A DNA stretch of 64,000 bases, from sequence record MK509462. One strand, given 5' to 3'. Source of the DNA: Shigella phage MK-13. Shown one piece after another: positions 4,317-59,776 of the stretch. The number at the start of each line of letters is the position of its first letter. The first letter of the stretch is position 1. Below the pieces are notes generated by a model. That model was not told the origin of the DNA and searched no databases. It saw only the letters and a list, made by a program, of their open reading frames with translations. The position numbers and the translations under genes were made by a program.

Positions 4317-4327
4317 CTAAATACCCC
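4317..4327 (+). promoter_or_regulatory. late-promoter-like motif CTAAATACCCC with 5'-UTR hairpin (ataccccta / taggggtat, 4321..4355)
   Basis: CTAAATAcccc followed by inverted repeat whose 3' arm supplies a GGGG Shine-Dalgarno 7 nt before ATG 4361. Confidence 0.45.
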
Positions 4328-4360
4328 TAGATGAAACGAACACATTTAGGGGTATTTGAA

Positions 4361-9473: not shown

Positions 9474-9484
9474 CTAAATACCCC
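9474..9484 (+). promoter_or_regulatory. late-promoter-like motif CTAAATACCCC with 5'-UTR hairpin (ataccccata / tatggggtat, 9478..9510)
   Basis: Same architecture as at 4317; GGGG of 3' arm 8 nt before ATG 9517. Confidence 0.45.
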
Positions 9485-9516
9485 ATATTGGCAAATCCTC
9501 TATGGGGTATCTTCAA

Positions 9517-20812: not shown

Positions 20813-20820
20813 CTAAATAC
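20813..20820 (+). promoter_or_regulatory. late-promoter-like motif CTAAATAC
   Basis: About 30 nt upstream of ATG 20843, followed by imperfect ataccttcaa/ttgagggtat repeat supplying GAGGG RBS. Confidence 0.4.
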
Positions 20821-20842
20821 CTTCAAAATTGAGGGTATCGAT

Positions 20843-35691: not shown

Positions 35692-36012
35692 ATGGCTAAC
35701 AGCATCCCAATTTTAGAAGCGGTCGTAAAAGAGAACCCTCGTGCGCGCAAATCGCGTCGTCGACTGGTCACCAAGCTGGACCTTCTGAAACAGAAGTTCG
35801 GCGACCACAGTGTGTTCGCTCGTATCCGTAATGCATTAAAGGAAGGAAGAACCGAGCTGGAGCTTTATCGCCCGAACGGTTCGACACGCGCGTATCAAAC
35901 CACTGACGGCTTACTGGAACTGATCCGCCTGAGCGGGATGACAATCGAACCCCGTTCGTCAGGCACTCCTCTGTGCTCCCTGTATGTCATCGGCAATCTT
36001 GGGGCGCTGTGA
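35692..36012 (+). CDS. hypothetical basic protein
   Basis: 106-aa ORF; preceded by hairpin (ggggtatg..cataccc) and AGAGGA RBS. Confidence 0.45.
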   Translation: MANSIPILEAVVKENPRARKSRRRLVTKLDLLKQKFGDHSVFARIRNALKEGRTELELYRPNGSTRAYQTTDGLLELIRLSGMTIEPRSSGTPLCSLYVIGNLGAL

Positions 36013-36017
36013 GTTCC

Positions 36018-36440
36018 ATGAAGAAATATATCGTACTCGTTACAGGTTCCCGCTCAATCACCGAGCGGGATAAGGTATTCGCCAAGCTGGACGAACTCCT
36101 CGATCCTCATGAAGTCTATACGTTGATCGAGGGTGAGGCCACGGGTGTCGACACGATTTGCCGTGATTGGGCTGAAATCAATTATGTTCATACCACTCCT
36201 ATGCCAATCCCTCCGAGCTATTATGAAAAGTATGGGAACGGGATGGGCAACAAACGCAATCAGGACATGTTAGACAAGGCATTGGATCTCGCCAGGCAGA
36301 CCAAGCTGGAAGTGTATCCGATTGCGATGTGGGATGGTTCGTCCACTGGCACCCTGGACATGATCAACCGTTGCAAGAAAGCTGGCCTCCCTGTGGACAT
36401 CACACTGATGGGCAAGCCGAAGACCAAGCGCCTTTTGTAA
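36018..36440 (+). CDS. DUF2493 / SLOG-type Rossmann-like protein (tentative)
   Basis: ORF 35973..36440 with start ATG 36018; IVLVTGSRSITERD ... GEATGVDTICRDWA ... MWDGSSTGTLDMI pattern typical of that family; recalled from memory, not searched. Confidence 0.4.
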   Translation: MKKYIVLVTGSRSITERDKVFAKLDELLDPHEVYTLIEGEATGVDTICRDWAEINYVHTTPMPIPPSYYEKYGNGMGNKRNQDMLDKALDLARQTKLEVYPIAMWDGSSTGTLDMINRCKKAGLPVDITLMGKPKTKRLL

Positions 36441-36653: not shown

Positions 36654-36665
36654 CTAAATACCCCC
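36654..36665 (+). promoter_or_regulatory. late-promoter-like motif CTAAATACCCCC with 5'-UTR hairpin (36658..36682)
   Basis: CTAAATAccccc then ataccccca / tgggggtat inverted repeat before ATG 36688. Confidence 0.45.
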
Positions 36666-36687
36666 ATCATCCATGGGGGTATTTTCT

Positions 36688-37416
36688 ATGAACGCACAGA
36701 TCTATGACGCCCTTGAGCAGGGCAACGCATTTAACAATCCTCTCCCGTCCCTCAGCAGCACGTCTCAGGGTTTAATCACCAGCGGCAAGGCGACTACAGC
36801 TGCACTGGCAAACACCGGAAATACGCAAATCCAGGGCGCTCTGACGGCAGGCGGTCTAACCACGGCCAAGCTCAATGAAACGAACACGATGTTCACCTCT
36901 GCCAACACCAGCCTCACCACGCTGAACAACTATGGTGATCAGACTGTGAACGAAGCGTATTCCCGCATCGGGACTTCCGTGTCGTACAAATCTGGCCTGA
37001 AGTCAATCGAGCGCGAGCCGACCAACTGTGATCTGATCAATAATGCCTTCGGCGTCATACAGACTCTTGGGCGCCAGTGGATCGGCGCTATGGAGGGCGC
37101 TCTCAGCACTGTTACCGCCAAGATGGCCGAACTGGCTGAGTTAGTTGCGCAGGGTGTGAGCGCTGGCCTGGCAAAGATCCAGGCGCTGGCCGCCGAAGTT
37201 ACCGGATATATCAACGATGCTATTGCTCAGGTGGCGCAAATCGGTCAGGATATCGCCAATGGTATTGCCTCAGAGTTGGCCCACATCCAAGACATGGTCA
37301 GCAAGTGTCTGAACTTCTCGTTCGCCAATGTACTGTCTGAGTGGGCTAAAGACCTGTGCGCTGGTGGTGTTATCAACAACATCGGTTCTGATAATCTGAA
37401 GAGCGCCCTGAAGTAA
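36688..37416 (+). CDS. hypothetical late protein (Ala/Thr/Gln-rich, possibly structural)
   Basis: ORF 36673..37416; start ATG 36688 downstream of late-type promoter/hairpin. Confidence 0.45.
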   Translation: MNAQIYDALEQGNAFNNPLPSLSSTSQGLITSGKATTAALANTGNTQIQGALTAGGLTTAKLNETNTMFTSANTSLTTLNNYGDQTVNEAYSRIGTSVSYKSGLKSIEREPTNCDLINNAFGVIQTLGRQWIGAMEGALSTVTAKMAELAELVAQGVSAGLAKIQALAAEVTGYINDAIAQVAQIGQDIANGIASELAHIQDMVSKCLNFSFANVLSEWAKDLCAGGVINNIGSDNLKSALK

Positions 37417-38067
37417 TCAGCGCTCCCGCGCCGGAAGAACTCCCACTGGTTCGATACCGTCCAACAGTAGGGAGTTCACCCCGACGTTGCTCAGCCTGAT
37501 CCAGATCGTCCCCTCTGGCTTCACTTCGAAGATGTTCATCTCATTCCCAACAGCATCGTTGTTGACAAACACACCCTGAGTTGCGATTCGTACTGGCTTG
37601 TCTGAGTCATTCATGATCTTGAACGTCACGATTATATCCGATGTTTCACTCAGTCGCCCAACCATGTGTTGCTTCAGTTTGGCGTAGAATGATGGATTAA
37701 AAGTGATGATGATGCTGTTGTTCTGAGAGTAATAAATACTTGCTGATAGGTATGGAATCTTCCCTTCATCGCCACGACGCAGGAGGGGAATCGTGGTCTT
37801 CCAGTATGGCTTGAGGGTGCTCGTGTTCTCCTCGAAGCAACCCAAAGGCACGAGCTTCTGGAAGGTCTGGAACTCTTGCACGATGATGTCCAGCATACCC
37901 TTGTTACAAGTAGGAACACTGGCCGACAACGTCACGGGCACGGTGCGTACTTCTGGGTTCCAGAGTTCGGAAACAGAAATTATTGGCGTGACAAAGATGC
38001 GACAGCTCGTAAGCAAGAGCATCGCGCATGCCAACAACAATCTACTGATCCCGCGCATCAGGGTCAC
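37417..38067 (-). CDS. putative lipoprotein (lipobox LLTSC), minus strand
   Basis: Only long ORF in this interval; start GTG 38067 (GGAGA 6 nt upstream) or ATG 38058; signal peptide with Cys lipobox RLLLACAMLLLTSC. Confidence 0.5.
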   Translation of the reverse strand: MTLMRGISRLLLACAMLLLTSCRIFVTPIISVSELWNPEVRTVPVTLSASVPTCNKGMLDIIVQEFQTFQKLVPLGCFEENTSTLKPYWKTTIPLLRRGDEGKIPYLSASIYYSQNNSIIITFNPSFYAKLKQHMVGRLSETSDIIVTFKIMNDSDKPVRIATQGVFVNNDAVGNEMNIFEVKPEGTIWIRLSNVGVNSLLLDGIEPVGVLPARER

Positions 38068-38096
38068 AAAATATCTCCACAGCAAAAGGTGCTATT

Positions 38097-38597
38097 ATGT
38101 CCGACGTACAATTCAAGAACGAAAACCCTAATTTCGCGGCGTCCGATAAGTGGCGTCTGACTATCGGAGACCTTGTACTCCTAACCCGTAACATCCACGA
38201 CTTCAGTATACCAGGAGTGTACTCTGAAGGCATCGATGGTCCGTCTCCTGGCGACGTACTGGTTTCTATCCCTTCAGAACGTTTAACCTATGATCCCGTC
38301 GTATTTACTTTCGTTATAGACGAGGACTGGAAATCATGGTTACAGATCCACCAATGGATCACCAGCAACGTCGGCAAGGATTTGGCTGTCTCCAAGGACA
38401 TTACCATTGAATTACTGGATAACCTCAACCGACCGATTGGCCTCACTCTCGTGCTGGAGGAAGCCCGTCCGACTGCTCTGGACAACGTACTGGTGGATGT
38501 GGACGCGGCTGTACCTCAGCTGGTGACGACAGTGACGTTCAAGTTCCAGCAGCTGGTCCCACTATCTGGTGGGAAGGTGATTGATTCTAATCCATGA
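38097..38597 (+). CDS. hypothetical protein
   Basis: 166-aa ORF divergent from the lipoprotein gene; AAAGGTG RBS. Confidence 0.45.
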   Translation: MSDVQFKNENPNFAASDKWRLTIGDLVLLTRNIHDFSIPGVYSEGIDGPSPGDVLVSIPSERLTYDPVVFTFVIDEDWKSWLQIHQWITSNVGKDLAVSKDITIELLDNLNRPIGLTLVLEEARPTALDNVLVDVDAAVPQLVTTVTFKFQQLVPLSGGKVIDSNP

Positions 38598-39092: not shown

Positions 39093-39838
39093 TGGCATCT
39101 CTCCAAGCCCTGCGCAAGCTGAACGACTTCGAAAATCGTCATTACACATTCCAGCAGTACGAACTTCCTCATAAGGAACTGGAGTGTGTGACGACGGAGA
39201 ACGGTCGTCATTATGTGTCACCAACTGGTGTCAAGCTGACGTCTGTAACGACGATGCTGGGGCGTACTGGTGATCATGAATGGCTTGAGGCTTGGAGGGA
39301 GAAGCTGGGTGCAGAGGCCGCCGACCTTGAGACCATGCGTTGCGCTGACCGAGGGGAGAAGCTGCACCTCGCATGTGAACTGTATTTGAAGAACCGCCCA
39401 ATGAAAGAAGTGTTGGAAGCGGCTGGCGAATACATGTTCATGTTCAAGCAGCTGTTCCCCTATCTGAACAAGATGACAAAGATCTATGCTCAGGAGATCC
39501 CGTTATATAGCGAGGTGCTTGGTCTCGCAGGTCGAGTGGACCTTATCGGGGTTTATGAGGGTAAGCCTGCTATCATCGACTTCAAGACATCGAACACCAT
39601 GAAGACGCGGGGAATGATCGAGGACTACAGTATCCAGCTGTGCTTGTACTCTGTTATGTTCCAGCAGATGTTCGGTGTCAAGATCACCCGCCTCATCAAT
39701 GTGATTGCCAACGAGTCATCGTTGACGCCAACCATCATAGAGTTCAACCGCGATGACATACTGACGAAGATGTTTGAGCGTGTTCGTCTGTACCATCGCA
39801 TGGATAAAGAACAGAACGGAGTCTGGCCGGATCGCTAA
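39092..39838 (+). CDS. PD-(D/E)xK family nuclease (Cas4/RecB-like fold, tentative)
   Basis: ORF 39014..39838; start ATG 39092 overlapping upstream stop (TGATG). GRVDLIGVYEGKPAIIDFKTS has the D...(D/E)xK arrangement. Confidence 0.5.
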   Translation: MASLQALRKLNDFENRHYTFQQYELPHKELECVTTENGRHYVSPTGVKLTSVTTMLGRTGDHEWLEAWREKLGAEAADLETMRCADRGEKLHLACELYLKNRPMKEVLEAAGEYMFMFKQLFPYLNKMTKIYAQEIPLYSEVLGLAGRVDLIGVYEGKPAIIDFKTSNTMKTRGMIEDYSIQLCLYSVMFQQMFGVKITRLINVIANESSLTPTIIEFNRDDILTKMFERVRLYHRMDKEQNGVWPDR

Positions 39839-39866: not shown

Positions 39867-41375
39867 ATGGCAGACATTCAGATTGTTAAGGTTAACGAAG
39901 TCCGCATGCGTTGCATCGCAGATCTTTCTATCAGGGAAGAGCTGAATGACTACTTCAAATTCGAAGACCCGAACTTCGTTCCCAACCCCTTCTCTAAATG
40001 GGACGGGGTTGTTCGCTTGTTCACCAAGTCATCCGGTCTGATTGATATCGGCCTACTGTTTGAGGTGTTCAAGTTCTGCAAGAACAACAAATACACCATT
40101 GAACTGGATCCGGCTCTGAAGTACATTCAGGACATCCCAGATCAAGAAATCCATGACTTCATCGACAGTCTCCATCCAAAGATCCGCACCGAAAATCACG
40201 AATACATCGATGCTGAGACCCGCGACTATCAGTACGACACCATCGCCAAGGCTATGCGTCAAACCAGATGCGTCTGTGAACTGGCTACGAGTGCTGGTAA
40301 GTCCTTTATTCTGTATGTCATGGCGCGGTACTACAGGCAGCGCAGAGAAGCTCTCGAAAGTCCTCTGAAGACGCTTATCGTGGTGCCGTCGATTCACCTG
40401 GTCACTCAGCTGTACGACAACTTTGAAGAGTACGCACACGGCAGCGATTGGAAGCCCGTTGCCAACACTCAGTTGATCTTTGAGGGCGCGACAAAGGAAA
40501 TCAGCAAACCAATCGTCATCAGTACATGGCAGGGCATTCAAGACCAGCCGAAAGAATGGTTCCACCAGTTCGGTGACATCGTGGTGGATGAAGTGCACAC
40601 CTCCAAGTCTGAGAAACTGTCCTACATCCTCAACAACTGCATCTACGCCGACCAGCGCCTGGGGGTTACAGGTACGCTGTCGAACACCAAAGTTGCCGGG
40701 CTTCAGGTGGTGGCTCACTTCGGGGCGTACCATAAGATCATCACGGCTCGCGACCTTATCAATCTCGGGTACGCCACTGACATCAAAGTGAAGATGATTC
40801 AGCTGAAGCACACTCCGGCGGATGCTGTTGGTCTGGACGGGGATTATACCAAGGAAATAGAATACCTTATTACACACCAGTCCCGCAACGAACTGATCGC
40901 CAAGATGGCACTGAATCTGAAAGGGAACGTGGCCATCATGTTCGAGCGTATTGACGCCCACATGATGGTTGTGTACGATATGCTGAGCGCAGTCAAGCCC
41001 AACGTGTTTGTCATCAACGGGGAAGTGAAGATCGAAGACCGCCGCCGCATACAGAAAGCGATGGAGGATGGAGAGGATATCACGTTGTTGGCTTCATACG
41101 GGACAATGCAACAGGGTGTGTCAATCAAGAAGCTACACCACCTTGTACTGGCGCACCCGAGCAAGTCATATATCCGCGTCATACAGACATTGGGTCGTCT
41201 GATGCGTCAGCACTCCTCCAAGGACGTCGCGTGGATATGGGACTTAGTGGATGATGTGTCGTACAACGCCAGCACGAACCACGCTATCAGGCACTCTCAT
41301 GAGCGATACAAGTTCTACCTGACAGAGCGCCACCCTGTGGAGTTCATGAAGGTGGCGCTGGGTAATCACGACTGA
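39867..41375 (+). CDS. uvsW: UvsW-like SF2 DNA helicase
   Basis: ORF 39774..41375; start ATG 39867 (GGGAG RBS). ATSAGKS (Walker A), VDEVH (DExH), WQGIQDQPKEWFHQFG, LHHLVLAHPSKSYIRVIQTLGR, WIWDLVDD parallel T4 UvsW PTSAGKS, WQTVVKQPKEWFSQFG, LHHVVLAHGVKSKIIVLQTIGR, VWDLIDD. Confidence 0.8.
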   Translation: MADIQIVKVNEVRMRCIADLSIREELNDYFKFEDPNFVPNPFSKWDGVVRLFTKSSGLIDIGLLFEVFKFCKNNKYTIELDPALKYIQDIPDQEIHDFIDSLHPKIRTENHEYIDAETRDYQYDTIAKAMRQTRCVCELATSAGKSFILYVMARYYRQRREALESPLKTLIVVPSIHLVTQLYDNFEEYAHGSDWKPVANTQLIFEGATKEISKPIVISTWQGIQDQPKEWFHQFGDIVVDEVHTSKSEKLSYILNNCIYADQRLGVTGTLSNTKVAGLQVVAHFGAYHKIITARDLINLGYATDIKVKMIQLKHTPADAVGLDGDYTKEIEYLITHQSRNELIAKMALNLKGNVAIMFERIDAHMMVVYDMLSAVKPNVFVINGEVKIEDRRRIQKAMEDGEDITLLASYGTMQQGVSIKKLHHLVLAHPSKSYIRVIQTLGRLMRQHSSKDVAWIWDLVDDVSYNASTNHAIRHSHERYKFYLTERHPVEFMKVALGNHD

Positions 41376-41743
41376 TCTTGATTCACATAGGCGGGGGTGG
41401 CCTCGCCTTCATCAGATACTGCGCCGAACAATTTGTCCAGAGAAACCAGACATTGTGCGTTCAGGTGTTCACTGATAGTGTCCTTCAGCATTTGTTCGCT
41501 GCCCAATTTGAATGGCAGAACCTTCGCTTCGACGCCGTTTTCAAACGTCACCACACCGACATACAGACCAACTTTCAGGCCTGCCATCAAACCCAGAGGG
41601 ACAAATCGCGGCTCCGATGGTAAGTTCTTGTCTGACGCCAGCTGCGCCAGATAAACTGGGGTGCCTGTGACAAATTGCCCTGCGGTGAGGATGGCGTCTG
41701 GCTTACTGCATCCGACCGCATATAATCCTACGAACTGTTTCAT
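41366..41743 (-). CDS. hypothetical protein, minus strand, convergent with uvsW
   Basis: 125-aa ORF; ATG at 41743 with GAGAG RBS 6 nt upstream on minus strand; overlaps uvsW stop by 10 nt. Confidence 0.45.
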   Translation of the reverse strand: MKQFVGLYAVGCSKPDAILTAGQFVTGTPVYLAQLASDKNLPSEPRFVPLGLMAGLKVGLYVGVVTFENGVEAKVLPFKLGSEQMLKDTISEHLNAQCLVSLDKLFGAVSDEGEATPAYVNQDQS

Positions 41744-41870
41744 ATATTACTCTCGTGTGTTGGTTAACATGACATACATATTATTTCGCGTGCATGTTTA
41801 GACCAAATAAATTAATTTTGCTGTTGAATAAAAATTGCTTTCCTGTTGAACAAATGGCGCGGTATTATAC

Positions 41871-41896
41871 GAGTTGTGAGTGTTAACGAACAACGA
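41871..41896. repeat. block A' of bipartite intergenic repeat (gagttgtgagtgttaacgaacaacga)
   Basis: Matches 287..312 with 1 mismatch. Confidence 0.6.
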
Positions 41897-58775: not shown

Positions 58776-59462
58776 ATGAAACGTTTAATCCTCGGGGTCG
58801 TGCTGGCTGGTCTGGCATTACCCGCCGTCGCCAAGCTGAACTCCACAGGTGACAAACTGTGGTCTGATCTTTCCTACTGTGCTGGGTTCTCCCAGGCAGT
58901 CGCCATCGACAAGTCTGGTTCCATAGAGAACTTTGCTGAACTCTGGAACACAGGCAACGTCTCCACTGCAGTTGTTAACGCTGGGATTGAGTTCAACCGT
59001 TACAAACAGGGAGCCTATAACCTCAAGGGCTACCTCAATGACGACGAATTTAATCGAGGCGGCATGGAGGCTGGCGATCTTATCATGACTGGGCGTATGG
59101 GCACCCAAGGCCGAATGACAGTCAGACAGTGCCGTTCTCTCCCTTCTCCGGCATTACAGAAGGGTGTGCAGATAGGCCGCCGCCACCTGAACCTCATCAA
59201 CGATGGCAATCAGTGCATCAAAGTATTCGAATACAGCGCTACGCAGACCTCTGATCGAGTCCTGAAGAAGGAATGGCGCACCCGCGCCCTCGACCTCAGG
59301 GCATGGTTGGTGGAGAACGATTATTACTTTGAAGACAGGGTTCAGAACGGCCTGAAAGACCTGGCCACGAATCTGAGCGTGAACCTTGATGATCCTCGCA
59401 TGTCGCGCGAACTCCAGCAGACTCGTGTTGACTGCGACAATATGATGAAGGAGAACGAGTGA
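58776..59462 (+). CDS. secreted protein (cleavable signal peptide)
   Basis: ORF 58710..59462 truncated to ATG 58776 (AAGGAG RBS); MKRLILGVVLAGLALPAVA signal peptide; several Cys. Confidence 0.45.
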   Translation: MKRLILGVVLAGLALPAVAKLNSTGDKLWSDLSYCAGFSQAVAIDKSGSIENFAELWNTGNVSTAVVNAGIEFNRYKQGAYNLKGYLNDDEFNRGGMEAGDLIMTGRMGTQGRMTVRQCRSLPSPALQKGVQIGRRHLNLINDGNQCIKVFEYSATQTSDRVLKKEWRTRALDLRAWLVENDYYFEDRVQNGLKDLATNLSVNLDDPRMSRELQQTRVDCDNMMKENE

Positions 59463-59776
59463 TGAAAGGTAAAATCCTACTCCTGCTGTTACTGATGGCC
59501 GGGTGTGTAAACGCCACACCACCGTCTAAACTGAATACCTGCGCCGCCTGGATGGAGACGTATCAGCAATTCCATCCGGACGACAAAGATACATCTATCC
59601 TCCTGTCTGACTTCGAGGGAGAGCTGAAGCGCCTTGATCTGTTCAGTGTTGATCAGATAGAGAATGCGCTGGACCTACCAATGATGATGTCTGCGGCCGA
59701 AAACAGCCCACAAACGAAGAAAGACCTGATGTATTGTCGGGGGATTGCCCAGGACTTTGTCGGATTTCAAAAATAA
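59462..59776 (+). CDS. putative lipoprotein
   Basis: ORF 59459..59776; ATG 59462 overlapping upstream stop; MKGKILLLLLLMAGC with lipobox-like MAGC. Confidence 0.45.
   Translation: MKGKILLLLLLMAGCVNATPPSKLNTCAAWMETYQQFHPDDKDTSILLSDFEGELKRLDLFSVDQIENALDLPMMMSAAENSPQTKKDLMYCRGIAQDFVGFQK

What the first reader, a model, noticed from the sequence alone, without database searches (positions are those of the whole stretch)
37417..38067. Lipoprotein gene on the opposite strand inside the plus-strand gene block
A roughly 200-residue protein with a lipobox (LLTSC) is encoded on the minus strand, convergent with a late gene and divergent from the next plus-strand gene; no plus-strand ORF competes for the interval. 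Phage-encoded outer-membrane lipoproteins in comparable positions often mediate superinfection exclusion by masking the receptor (Llp/Cor-type) or act as spanin components.
Basis: inference. Interest (0 to 1): 0.5.

Follow-up and report, generated by a model that had tools for sequence, protein, structure and literature searches.

The report
Conserved phage lipoprotein, function unknown
The minus-strand gene is real and encodes a lipoprotein (Pfam DUF7424) that almost every Ackermannviridae phage keeps at this spot; it is already catalogued, is neither a spanin nor a relative of Llp/Cor, and its role, probably at the cell envelope, is untested.

Summary
The window is an Agtrevirus (Ackermannviridae) genome, 99.6% identical to Salmonella phage P46FS4. 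The ORF at 37417-38067 (-) is P46FS4 ORF34, identical at DNA level. It starts at a GTG preceded by GGAGA, both invariant in 8 genera, and is under purifying selection (dN/dS about 0.1, like the flanking virion genes). Its signal peptide and lipobox (L-T-S-C, Cys22) pass the PROSITE lipoprotein rule with all three candidate start codons. It belongs to Pfam DUF7424 and phrog_3832, both of unknown function.

Homologues occur in 292 phage records. In all 17 phage loci inspected the gene lies on the strand opposite to, and diverging from, the gp3-like tail-completion gene. It is absent from the virion protein lists of two relatives.

The spanin reading is not supported: there is no partner gene and no C-terminal membrane segment, and an Rz-like lipoprotein gene lies at 59459-59776. 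It is not homologous to T5 Llp, and a good model (pLDDT 88.5) has no informative structural match.

A role in excluding other phages at the cell envelope is the best guess (about 0.35). Distant bacterial homologues sit in mobile elements beside defence genes. Against this, the protein follows phage phylogeny rather than host surface type. Interest is modest.

The parts
37417..38067 (-). Coding sequence of a 216-aa prolipoprotein (mature form 195 aa, 21.9 kDa), family DUF7424 / phrog_3832
   Evidence: ORF. Identical to P46FS4 ORF34. Pfam PF24199 E=5.7e-59, 199.6 bits against a cut-off of 27. phrog_3832 E=4.7e-100. dN/dS 0.08-0.13.
38074..38078 (-). Ribosome-binding site GGAGA, 6 nt upstream of the GTG start at 38067
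   Evidence: Read from the sequence. GGAGA and the GTG are invariant in the 8-phage alignment A3.
38005..38067 (-). Signal peptide, residues 1-21 (MTLMRGISRLLLACAMLLLTS): basic start (R5, R9) followed by a hydrophobic core
   Evidence: PROSITE PS51257 rule met with each of three candidate starts. The highest hydrophobicity of the protein is here.
38002..38013 (-). Lipobox L19-T20-S21-C22. The Cys22 codon is 38002-38004. Residue +2 is Arg.
   Evidence: Cys22 is invariant in alignment A1 and nearly invariant in the distant alignment A2. 59 of the 80 database homologues pass the strict rule (62 of 83 rows, three of which are the window's own alternative starts). Most of the failures are N-terminally truncated gene calls or have Asn at -2.
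37906..37908 (-). Cys54 codon, the first of two further conserved cysteines (inferred disulfide with Cys77)
   Evidence: Invariant in A1. Two cysteines at equivalent places in the Vibrio and Aeromonas phage homologues. The disulfide itself is inference.
37837..37839 (-). Cys77 codon, the second conserved cysteine
   Evidence: Invariant in A1.
37401..37425 (-). Interrupted 9-bp G+C-rich hairpin whose loop holds both stop codons (UGA of this gene and the complement of the neighbour's TAA). A weak candidate 3'-end element without a proper U run.
   Evidence: Fold gives -13.1 kcal/mol but z is only -1.07. The terminator scan found nothing. At the equivalent place Taipeivirus, Serratia 3M and Erwinia phiEa2809 have clear hairpin-plus-U-run terminators on the lipoprotein strand (z -2.8 to -3.2). 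Kuttervirus and Limestonevirus have none.
36688..37416 (+). Context: convergent neighbour (DUF7217, 242 aa, virion protein), with late-promoter-like CTAAATAccccc at 36654-36665
   Evidence: Pfam PF23854 E=6e-99. Motif. The LIMEstone1 ORF129 'unknown structural protein' of 25.03 kDa matches the phiD3 homologue at 25.08 kDa.
38097..38597 (+). Context: divergent neighbour, the gp3-like tail-completion / sheath-stabiliser gene, 29 nt from the lipoprotein start
   Evidence: Annotation in relatives. phrog_45 tail tube. Detected in LIMEstone1 virions as ORF127 at 18.52 kDa, against 18.51 kDa computed.

Best explanation
The gene encodes a protein that the infected cell exports through Sec. It is then lipidated and cleaved at Cys22 by the host Lgt/LspA/Lnt pathway. 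Because residue +2 is Arg and not Asp, the Lol system should deliver it to the inner leaflet of the outer membrane, where a compact disulfide-bonded alpha/beta domain faces the periplasm. It is not part of the virion.

It is a vertically inherited, near-core gene of Ackermannviridae and is probably its own small transcription unit, set against the surrounding late genes.

My best guess for its role is an envelope-level exclusion or protection factor. It would act on a step common to the whole phage family after the tailspikes have cleared the polysaccharide, such as secondary-receptor engagement or tail penetration through the outer membrane and periplasm. That would keep further phages out of an infected cell, or keep progeny from wasting themselves on envelope debris. 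This is what T5 Llp or T4 Spackle achieve, but with an unrelated protein.

What is shown: the gene is real, the lipoprotein signals are present, and the conservation, synteny and absence from two virion proteomes hold. What is inferred: lipidation, outer-membrane sorting and the disulfide. The exclusion function is a hypothesis only.
For: Identity and reality of the gene.

Export signals are a family trait. The lipobox cysteine is conserved out to 20-25% identity in phage and bacterial members.

Not a virion protein. In LIMEstone1 the two flanking gene products (ORF127, ORF129) were found in virions by mass spectrometry, but ORF128 was not. The Sajous1 homologue gp167 is absent from that phage's list of detected proteins.

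Possible autonomous unit on the opposite strand. Clear intrinsic terminators follow the gene on its own strand in three of the six lineages folded.

Independence from other phage genes. Distant DUF7424 lipoproteins occur in bacterial mobile elements: a P4-like element with integrase, AlpA and D5-type primase that also carries an AriA-like ATPase; an island with integrase and resolvase beside a PDC-S01 candidate defence gene; and a locus three genes from an Eco29kI-type restriction-modification pair. This suggests a cell-autonomous envelope function of the kind that mobile elements carry against phages.

Architectural parallel. T5 llp is likewise a small lipoprotein gene transcribed divergently from a late tail gene (oad), and its product inactivates the receptor.
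Against: No homology or fold similarity to any known exclusion protein.

The gene behaves like a core structural-module gene rather than an arms-race accessory. Its dN/dS equals that of gp3 and DUF7217. It is present in 292 records, against about 280 with a close gp3. It follows phage phylogeny, not host surface type.

No early (sigma-70-type) promoter was found upstream.

In two marine relatives an exact late-type CTAAATA lies on the lipoprotein strand 40-55 nt upstream of the start, with near matches in two more. Late expression would suit a lysis or egress role better than early exclusion.

Association with defence genes rests on three bacterial loci and is circumstantial.
Confidence: 0.35

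Rival explanations
1. A lysis or egress accessory other than a canonical spanin. In this reading it is an outer-membrane lipoprotein made late that helps breach or destabilise the outer membrane, or that tunes lysis timing from the periplasm.
For: Late-type CTAAATA motifs lie on the lipoprotein strand upstream of the gene in Vibrio phage K476 and a metagenomic relative, with near matches in two others. The gene sits in a late-gene block. Core-gene conservation fits a function every infection needs.
Against: No lysis gene is adjacent in any of the 17 phage loci examined. An Rz-like spanin lipoprotein is already present elsewhere in the window. In the window itself no late motif precedes the gene. 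Bacterial homologues in non-lytic mobile elements are hard to fit with a lysis role.
Confidence: 0.17
2. A periplasmic modulator of a host envelope component, such as an inhibitor or binder of a peptidoglycan hydrolase, a protease, the Tol-Pal, Bam or Lpt machineries, or polysaccharide export. It would condition the envelope for phage production or counter an envelope-based host defence.
For: It is a compact beta-rich binding-type domain with a highly conserved C-terminal segment (SNVGVNSLL..GIEPVGVLPA). Conservation across phages of Enterobacterales, Vibrio and Aeromonas implies a target conserved in these hosts. In one bacterial island it lies in an apparent operon with an exported ankyrin-repeat protein and a second lipoprotein.
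Confidence: 0.2
3. An outer-membrane spanin subunit (o-spanin) or a unimolecular spanin.
Against: There is no embedded, overlapping or adjacent gene for an inner-membrane partner. The mature part has no C-terminal membrane segment. The 195-aa folded domain contrasts with the short, proline-rich o-spanins. A separate phrog_3843 'Rz-like spanin' lies at 59459-59776.
Confidence: 0.03
4. A virion or assembly component functionally coupled to the neighbouring gp3-like tail-completion protein.
For: The gene is linked to and divergent from the gp3-like gene in every phage member inspected, down to about 25% identity.
Against: Tail assembly is cytoplasmic, which is incompatible with an exported lipoprotein. 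The protein was not detected in the virion proteomes of two relatives although both neighbours were detected in one of them. Bacterial homologues occur without any tail gene.
Confidence: 0.04

Closest known systems
Pfam DUF7424 (PF24199) / PHROG phrog_3832
   Same: It is a full-length member: PF24199 E=5.7e-59 over residues 25-215, and phrog_3832 E=4.7e-100. Several GenBank records already call the homologue 'putative lipoprotein' or 'putative conserved lipoprotein'.
   Different: Nothing differs. This is the family it belongs to. The family has no assigned function, and the full-text search found no paper that names it.
Phage T5 Llp (lipoprotein that inactivates the FhuA receptor)
   Same: Both are phage-encoded lipoproteins processed by signal peptidase II. 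Both are small genes transcribed divergently from a late tail gene (T5 llp against oad). Both phages are lytic.
   Different: There is no sequence relationship beyond the signal peptide (hhalign probability 4.6%). Mature Llp has about 61 residues against 195 here. T5 llp adjoins the receptor-binding protein gene, whereas this gene adjoins the tail-completion gene. This protein does not vary with host surface type.
Cor (phi80, N15, T1, HK022) exclusion lipoproteins
   Same: They are small phage lipoproteins encoded within or next to tail-gene clusters and act at the outer membrane (own knowledge).
   Different: No Pfam or PHROG hit other than the two families of unknown function. It was not compared directly with a Cor sequence.
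Spanins: lambda Rz1 / T4 PseT.2-type o-spanins and T1 gp11 u-spanin
   Same: An N-terminal lipobox.
   Different: No partner gene, no C-terminal membrane segment, and a much larger folded domain. The window has its own Rz-like spanin candidate at 59459-59776.
T4 Spackle (Sp) and Imm, the superinfection-immunity proteins of T-even phages
   Same: This is a possible functional analogy only: envelope or periplasmic proteins of a large lytic myovirus that block entry by later phages at a step shared by the phage family (own knowledge).
   Different: Neither is a lipoprotein. No homology was detected in the Pfam, PHROG or structure searches. The function here is untested.

Membership tests
Bacterial lipoprotein precursor (signal peptidase II substrate; PROSITE PS51257) | Basic residue in the first 7 positions, an uncharged hydrophobic stretch, then [LIVMFWSTAG]2-[LIVMFYSTAGCQ]-[AGS]-C with the Cys at position 15-35 | tested here: met
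   Met with the GTG 38067 (Cys22), ATG 38058 (Cys19) and TTG 38085 (Cys28) starts.
Bacterial lipoprotein precursor (signal peptidase II substrate; PROSITE PS51257) | Lipobox cysteine conserved among homologues | tested here: met
   Cys22 is invariant in A1 and at least 90% conserved in A2. 59 of the 80 database homologues pass the strict rule. Most of the rest are truncated gene calls or have Asn at -2.
Bacterial lipoprotein precursor (signal peptidase II substrate; PROSITE PS51257) | Actual lipidation, globomycin-sensitive cleavage, and outer-membrane localisation | not testable with these tools
   Outer-membrane sorting is inferred from Arg at +2 (the Lol-avoidance rule needs Asp; own knowledge).
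Pfam DUF7424 (PF24199) | Score above the curated gathering cut-off over the full domain | tested here: met
   199.6 bits against a cut-off of 27, profile positions 2-196 of 196.
T5 Llp family | Sequence or profile homology of the mature protein to Llp | tested here: not met
   hhalign probability 4.6%; only 20 signal-peptide columns align.
T5 Llp family | Gene adjacent to and co-varying with the receptor-binding protein gene | tested here: not met
   The neighbours are the gp3-like and DUF7217 genes. The protein is 99% identical between an E. coli and a Klebsiella taipeivirus and 90% between an E. coli O157 and a Salmonella kuttervirus.
T5 Llp family | Blocks the phage's own outer-membrane receptor | not testable with these tools
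   Needs adsorption and plating assays.
Cor family | Sequence homology to Cor proteins | tested here: not met
   The Pfam and PHROG scans return only DUF7424, phrog_3832 and phrog_37762. This is an indirect test, with no pairwise comparison to a Cor sequence.
Two-component spanin, o-spanin subunit | Gene embedded in, overlapping or next to a gene for an inner-membrane i-spanin | tested here: not met
   Both neighbours are virion-protein genes on the other strand.
Two-component spanin, o-spanin subunit | Short mature polypeptide, typically proline-rich and with little predicted secondary structure | tested here: not met
   The mature part is 195 aa and is modelled as a compact alpha/beta domain at pLDDT 88.5.
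Unimolecular spanin (T1 gp11 type) | N-terminal lipobox plus a C-terminal transmembrane segment | tested here: not met
   The highest 19-residue hydropathy in the mature part is 1.19. The C-terminus is ...GIEPVGVLPARER.
Known anti-phage defence proteins (PADLOC-DB) | Match to any defence-protein model | tested here: not met
   No hit at E<=1 for the window protein or two distant homologues.

The most novel reading that the evidence does not exclude
DUF7424 may be a previously unrecognised family of envelope-anchored phage-exclusion lipoproteins. In this reading a whole family of large lytic phages (Ackermannviridae and marine relatives) keeps it as a core gene, and bacterial mobile elements (P4-like satellites, integrative islands) have borrowed it as defence cargo. 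It would act on a conserved post-adsorption step rather than on a variable primary receptor.
Probability: 0.25. Interest if true: 0.6.

Novelty: already known. Interest (0 to 1): 0.33.

Why it matters
Ackermannviridae such as Vi01, CBA120 and LIMEstone-type phages are widely used or proposed for biocontrol and therapy. Here is a near-universal exported protein of this family with no known function. If it blocks entry of related phages, it would affect how cocktails of such phages interfere with each other, and it could point to the still undefined step that follows tailspike action. As it stands, the finding adds no new sequence or family. It sharpens an existing annotation to a true lipoprotein with a GTG start that is not a spanin and not Llp/Cor. 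It also supplies a testable lead, namely the bacterial homologues beside defence genes.

Tried and rejected
1. Spanin reading: rejected (no partner gene, no C-terminal membrane segment, large folded domain, separate Rz-like gene).

2. Llp homology: rejected by profile comparison.

4. Function from sequence. NCBIfam, PADLOC and a profile search of PDB sequences gave nothing significant.

5. Timing of expression.
- The sigma-70 scan found no promoter for the gene.
- T4-type TATAAATA is absent from the window.
- The family's CTAAATA late motif is absent on the minus strand there; the nearest is GTAAATA at 38308, inside gp3.
- An extended -10-like TGGTATACT at 38213-38205 is not conserved in other genera.
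- Timing is therefore unresolved for this phage.

6. Terminator at the stop-to-stop junction. There is a hairpin, but it is not significant in the window and is absent in Kuttervirus and Limestonevirus.

7. Literature. No paper names DUF7424, and none of the papers found by the searches and read here gives a function for this Ackermannviridae lipoprotein.

8. The search for related loci with the distant alignment failed because no stretch was conserved enough.

Full report
WHAT THE WINDOW IS. A 2.1-kb stretch around the finding is 99.6% identical to Salmonella phage P46FS4 (Agtrevirus, Ackermannviridae) and 82-99% identical to 42 other records of that family. The local gene order is major capsid gene, small ORFs, a SLOG/YspA-domain gene, a DUF7217 gene, the finding on the opposite strand, a gp3-like tail-completion gene, uvsY, an exonuclease gene and uvsW.

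The minus-strand ORF runs 37417-38085 from the first possible start.
- Start codon: GGAGA, a spacer of 5-7 nt (6 nt in the window) and the GTG are invariant in eight phages from at least six genera. In the Serratia and Erwinia phages there is no ATG between the GTG and the lipobox cysteine codon.
- Coding: substitutions against relatives concentrate at third codon positions of the minus frame (21/16/86 against phiD3). dN/dS is 0.08-0.13, the same as for the flanking virion genes gp3 (0.07-0.11) and DUF7217 (0.06-0.14).
- Competing ORFs: two plus-strand ORFs of 94 and 112 aa overlap the 5' third. They are annotated in none of the ten records whose feature tables were read here, and the substitution pattern does not support them.

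IT IS A LIPOPROTEIN. The N-terminus, MTLMRGISRLLLACAMLLLTS|C, satisfies the PROSITE PS51257 rule with any of the three possible start codons.
- The cysteine is invariant among close homologues and at least 90% conserved in an alignment reaching 17-25% identity.
- 59 of the 80 database homologues pass the strict rule. Most of the failures are truncated gene calls or carry Asn at -2.
- Residue +2 is Arg here and Arg or Lys in most homologues. By the Lol-avoidance rule (own knowledge) this predicts the outer membrane. A few distant members have Asp.
- Cys54 and Cys77 are invariant among close homologues and have counterparts in the Vibrio and Aeromonas phage proteins. This fits a periplasmic disulfide, which is inference.
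- The mature part has no membrane segment.

FAMILY AND DISTRIBUTION. The protein is a full-length member of Pfam DUF7424 (E=5.7e-59) and phrog_3832, both without a function.
- tblastn finds it in 292 phage records. These cover Kuttervirus, Taipeivirus, Limestonevirus, Agtrevirus, Miltonvirus and Nezavisimistyvirus, plus Vibrio and Aeromonas phages at about 25% identity. About 280 records carry a close gp3 homologue, so it is a near-core gene.
- An exhaustive search of 1.84 billion representative proteins gave only 28 clusters, so the family is narrow.
- In all 17 phage loci inspected, including metagenomic ones, the gene diverges from the gp3-like gene.
- It follows phage phylogeny, not host surface type. 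It is 99% identical between an E. coli and a Klebsiella taipeivirus, and 90% identical between an E. coli O157 and a Salmonella kuttervirus.

NOT A VIRION PROTEIN. In LIMEstone1, mass spectrometry of virions detected ORF127 (gp3, 18.52 kDa) and ORF129 (25.03 kDa) but not ORF128. Computed masses for the same-species phage phiD3 assign ORF129 to DUF7217 (25.08 kDa) and not to the lipoprotein (23.99 kDa). In Sajous1 the homologue is gp167, and it is absent from that phage's list of detected proteins.

TRANSCRIPTION.
- The motif CTAAATA occurs 10 times in the window against 3.2 expected. All ten are on the plus strand, and eight of them lie immediately upstream of gene starts, five in the extended form CTAAATAcc.
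- The same motif was described as the gp55-type late promoter of the T4-like phage Aeh1 (PMC1524935), and the close relative P46FS4 is annotated with a gp55-like late sigma factor.
- One copy at 36654 precedes the convergent DUF7217 gene.
- No copy, and no sigma-70-type promoter, precedes the lipoprotein gene. Its 29-nt gap to gp3 leaves no room, so the promoter must lie inside gp3 and remains unidentified.
- In marine relatives with longer gaps, an exact CTAAATA (two loci) or a one-mismatch version (two loci) lies on the lipoprotein strand next to the gp3 ribosome-binding site. This hints at late expression there, but the motif overlaps the complement of that site and may be coincidental.
- The two convergent genes abut stop-to-stop in seven relatives from four lineages (P46FS4, CAU_YEP3, phiD3, LHE287, 0507-KN2-1, 4HA11 and KWBSE43-6). 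Sajous1 has a 1-nt gap.
- A 9-bp interrupted hairpin holds both stop codons in its loop (37401-37425), but it is not statistically distinguished here (z -1.07).
- Taipeivirus, Serratia 3M and Erwinia phiEa2809 have clear intrinsic terminators on the lipoprotein strand at that place. Kuttervirus and Limestonevirus have none.
- No terminator was found for the plus strand. Late transcripts from 36654 therefore probably run antisense through the gene on their way to gp3 (inference).

Spanin: not supported.
- No partner gene is embedded, overlapping or adjacent.
- There is no C-terminal membrane segment.
- The mature domain is large and folded.
- A 105-aa lipoprotein (LMAGC lipobox) matching the PHROG 'Rz-like spanin' lies at 59459-59776. 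It overlaps by 4 nt the end of a gene for a 228-aa protein with an N-terminal hydrophobic segment.

Llp/Cor type: not a family member.
- T5 Llp aligns only through its signal peptide (probability 4.6%).
- The Pfam and PHROG scans give no exclusion family.
- The gene arrangement does resemble T5, where llp is transcribed divergently from the late tail gene oad with back-to-back promoters.

A LEAD FROM DISTANT HOMOLOGUES. Besides phage members, DUF7424 lipoproteins occur in bacterial mobile elements.
- One lies next to the integrase of a P4-like element (D5-type primase, AlpA) that also carries an AriA-like ATPase (E=4e-21).
- One lies in an island with an integrase and a resolvase. It forms an apparent operon with an exported ankyrin-repeat protein and a second lipoprotein, two genes from a PDC-S01 candidate defence gene (E=5e-114).
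- One lies near a UmuC-like gene and an Eco29kI-type restriction-modification pair.
- One lies beside a resolvase.
This shows that the domain can work without other Ackermannviridae proteins. It also places the domain among the cargo that mobile elements carry against phages. The evidence is circumstantial and rests on few loci.

VERDICT. The gene and its lipoprotein nature are confirmed (about 0.9). Both are already on record: an identical annotated ORF, a curated Pfam DUF, and 'putative lipoprotein' labels in several genomes.

The function is unknown. My ranking is:
- envelope-level exclusion or protection acting on a step common to the phage family: 0.35
- a periplasmic modulator of a host envelope component: 0.20
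- a non-spanin lysis or egress accessory: 0.17
- a virion or assembly role: 0.04
- a spanin: 0.03
- something else: the remainder

Against the leading guess stand the core-gene behaviour, the lack of variation with host surface type, and the hint of late promoters in relatives. The experiments that would settle it are listed under next steps.

Noticed in passing
window 36654-36685, 4317-4358, 9474-9510, 20813-20838 (+): The late-promoter-like motif CTAAATA(cccc) is itself the 5' arm of a strong hairpin (AAAUACCCC...GGGGUAUUU; -10 to -21 kcal/mol, z -2.6 to -9) in 4 of 5 cases folded. The copy at 39835 has none. I have no explanation for why the -10-type element of late promoters is embedded in an inverted repeat or leader hairpin.
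   Followed up: partly
window 58776-59462 (+) and 59459-59776 (+): There is a second lipoprotein gene (105 aa, lipobox LMAGC, phrog_3843 'Rz-like spanin'). Its start overlaps by 4 nt the stop of a 228-aa protein with an N-terminal hydrophobic segment (MKRLILGVVLAGLALPAVA|K; phrog_4260, unknown function). That segment looks as much like a cleavable signal peptide as like an i-spanin membrane anchor, so the identity of the i-spanin is not settled.
   Followed up: partly
window 35973-36440 (+) and 36688-37416 (+): The SLOG/YspA-domain protein matches positions 7-146 of the 500-position profile phrog_289 ('GTP-binding domain'), and the DUF7217 virion protein matches positions 258-500. The profile therefore spans both proteins, which suggests that they are one fused protein in some phages. 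Here they are separate, with a 55-aa ORF between them.
   Followed up: no
window 41366-41743 (-), upstream about 41864-41893: Another opposite-strand gene (125 aa, phrog_4255, unknown function) has a sigma-70-like promoter about 120 nt upstream (TTGTTC, 18-nt spacer, TATAAT). The lipoprotein gene has no such promoter.
   Followed up: no
L019 1-8609; L008/L009 7294-11449; L018 6688-12486: Distant bacterial DUF7424 lipoproteins sit in mobile elements next to defence-type genes. These are an AriA-like ATPase in a P4-like element, a PDC-S01 candidate defence gene, and an Eco29kI-type restriction-modification pair. In L009 the gene lies between an exported ankyrin-repeat protein and a second lipoprotein that has a weak, sub-threshold match to the C-terminal part of the penicillin-binding-protein transpeptidase domain (E=0.019).
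   Followed up: partly
window 37793-38131 (+) and 37876-38160 (+): Two plus-strand ORFs (112 and 94 aa) overlap the 5' end of the lipoprotein gene and the start of gp3. They are unannotated in the 10 records whose feature tables were read and are not supported by the codon-position substitution pattern, so they are probably spurious.
   Followed up: partly
window 38067-38077 (+): CAAAATAtctcc, one mismatch from the late motif and with the same 'tct' continuation as the copies at 431 and 14301, lies in the 29-nt gap 30 nt upstream of the gp3 start. It overlaps the complement of the lipoprotein start codon. It could be a weak late promoter for gp3.
   Followed up: no
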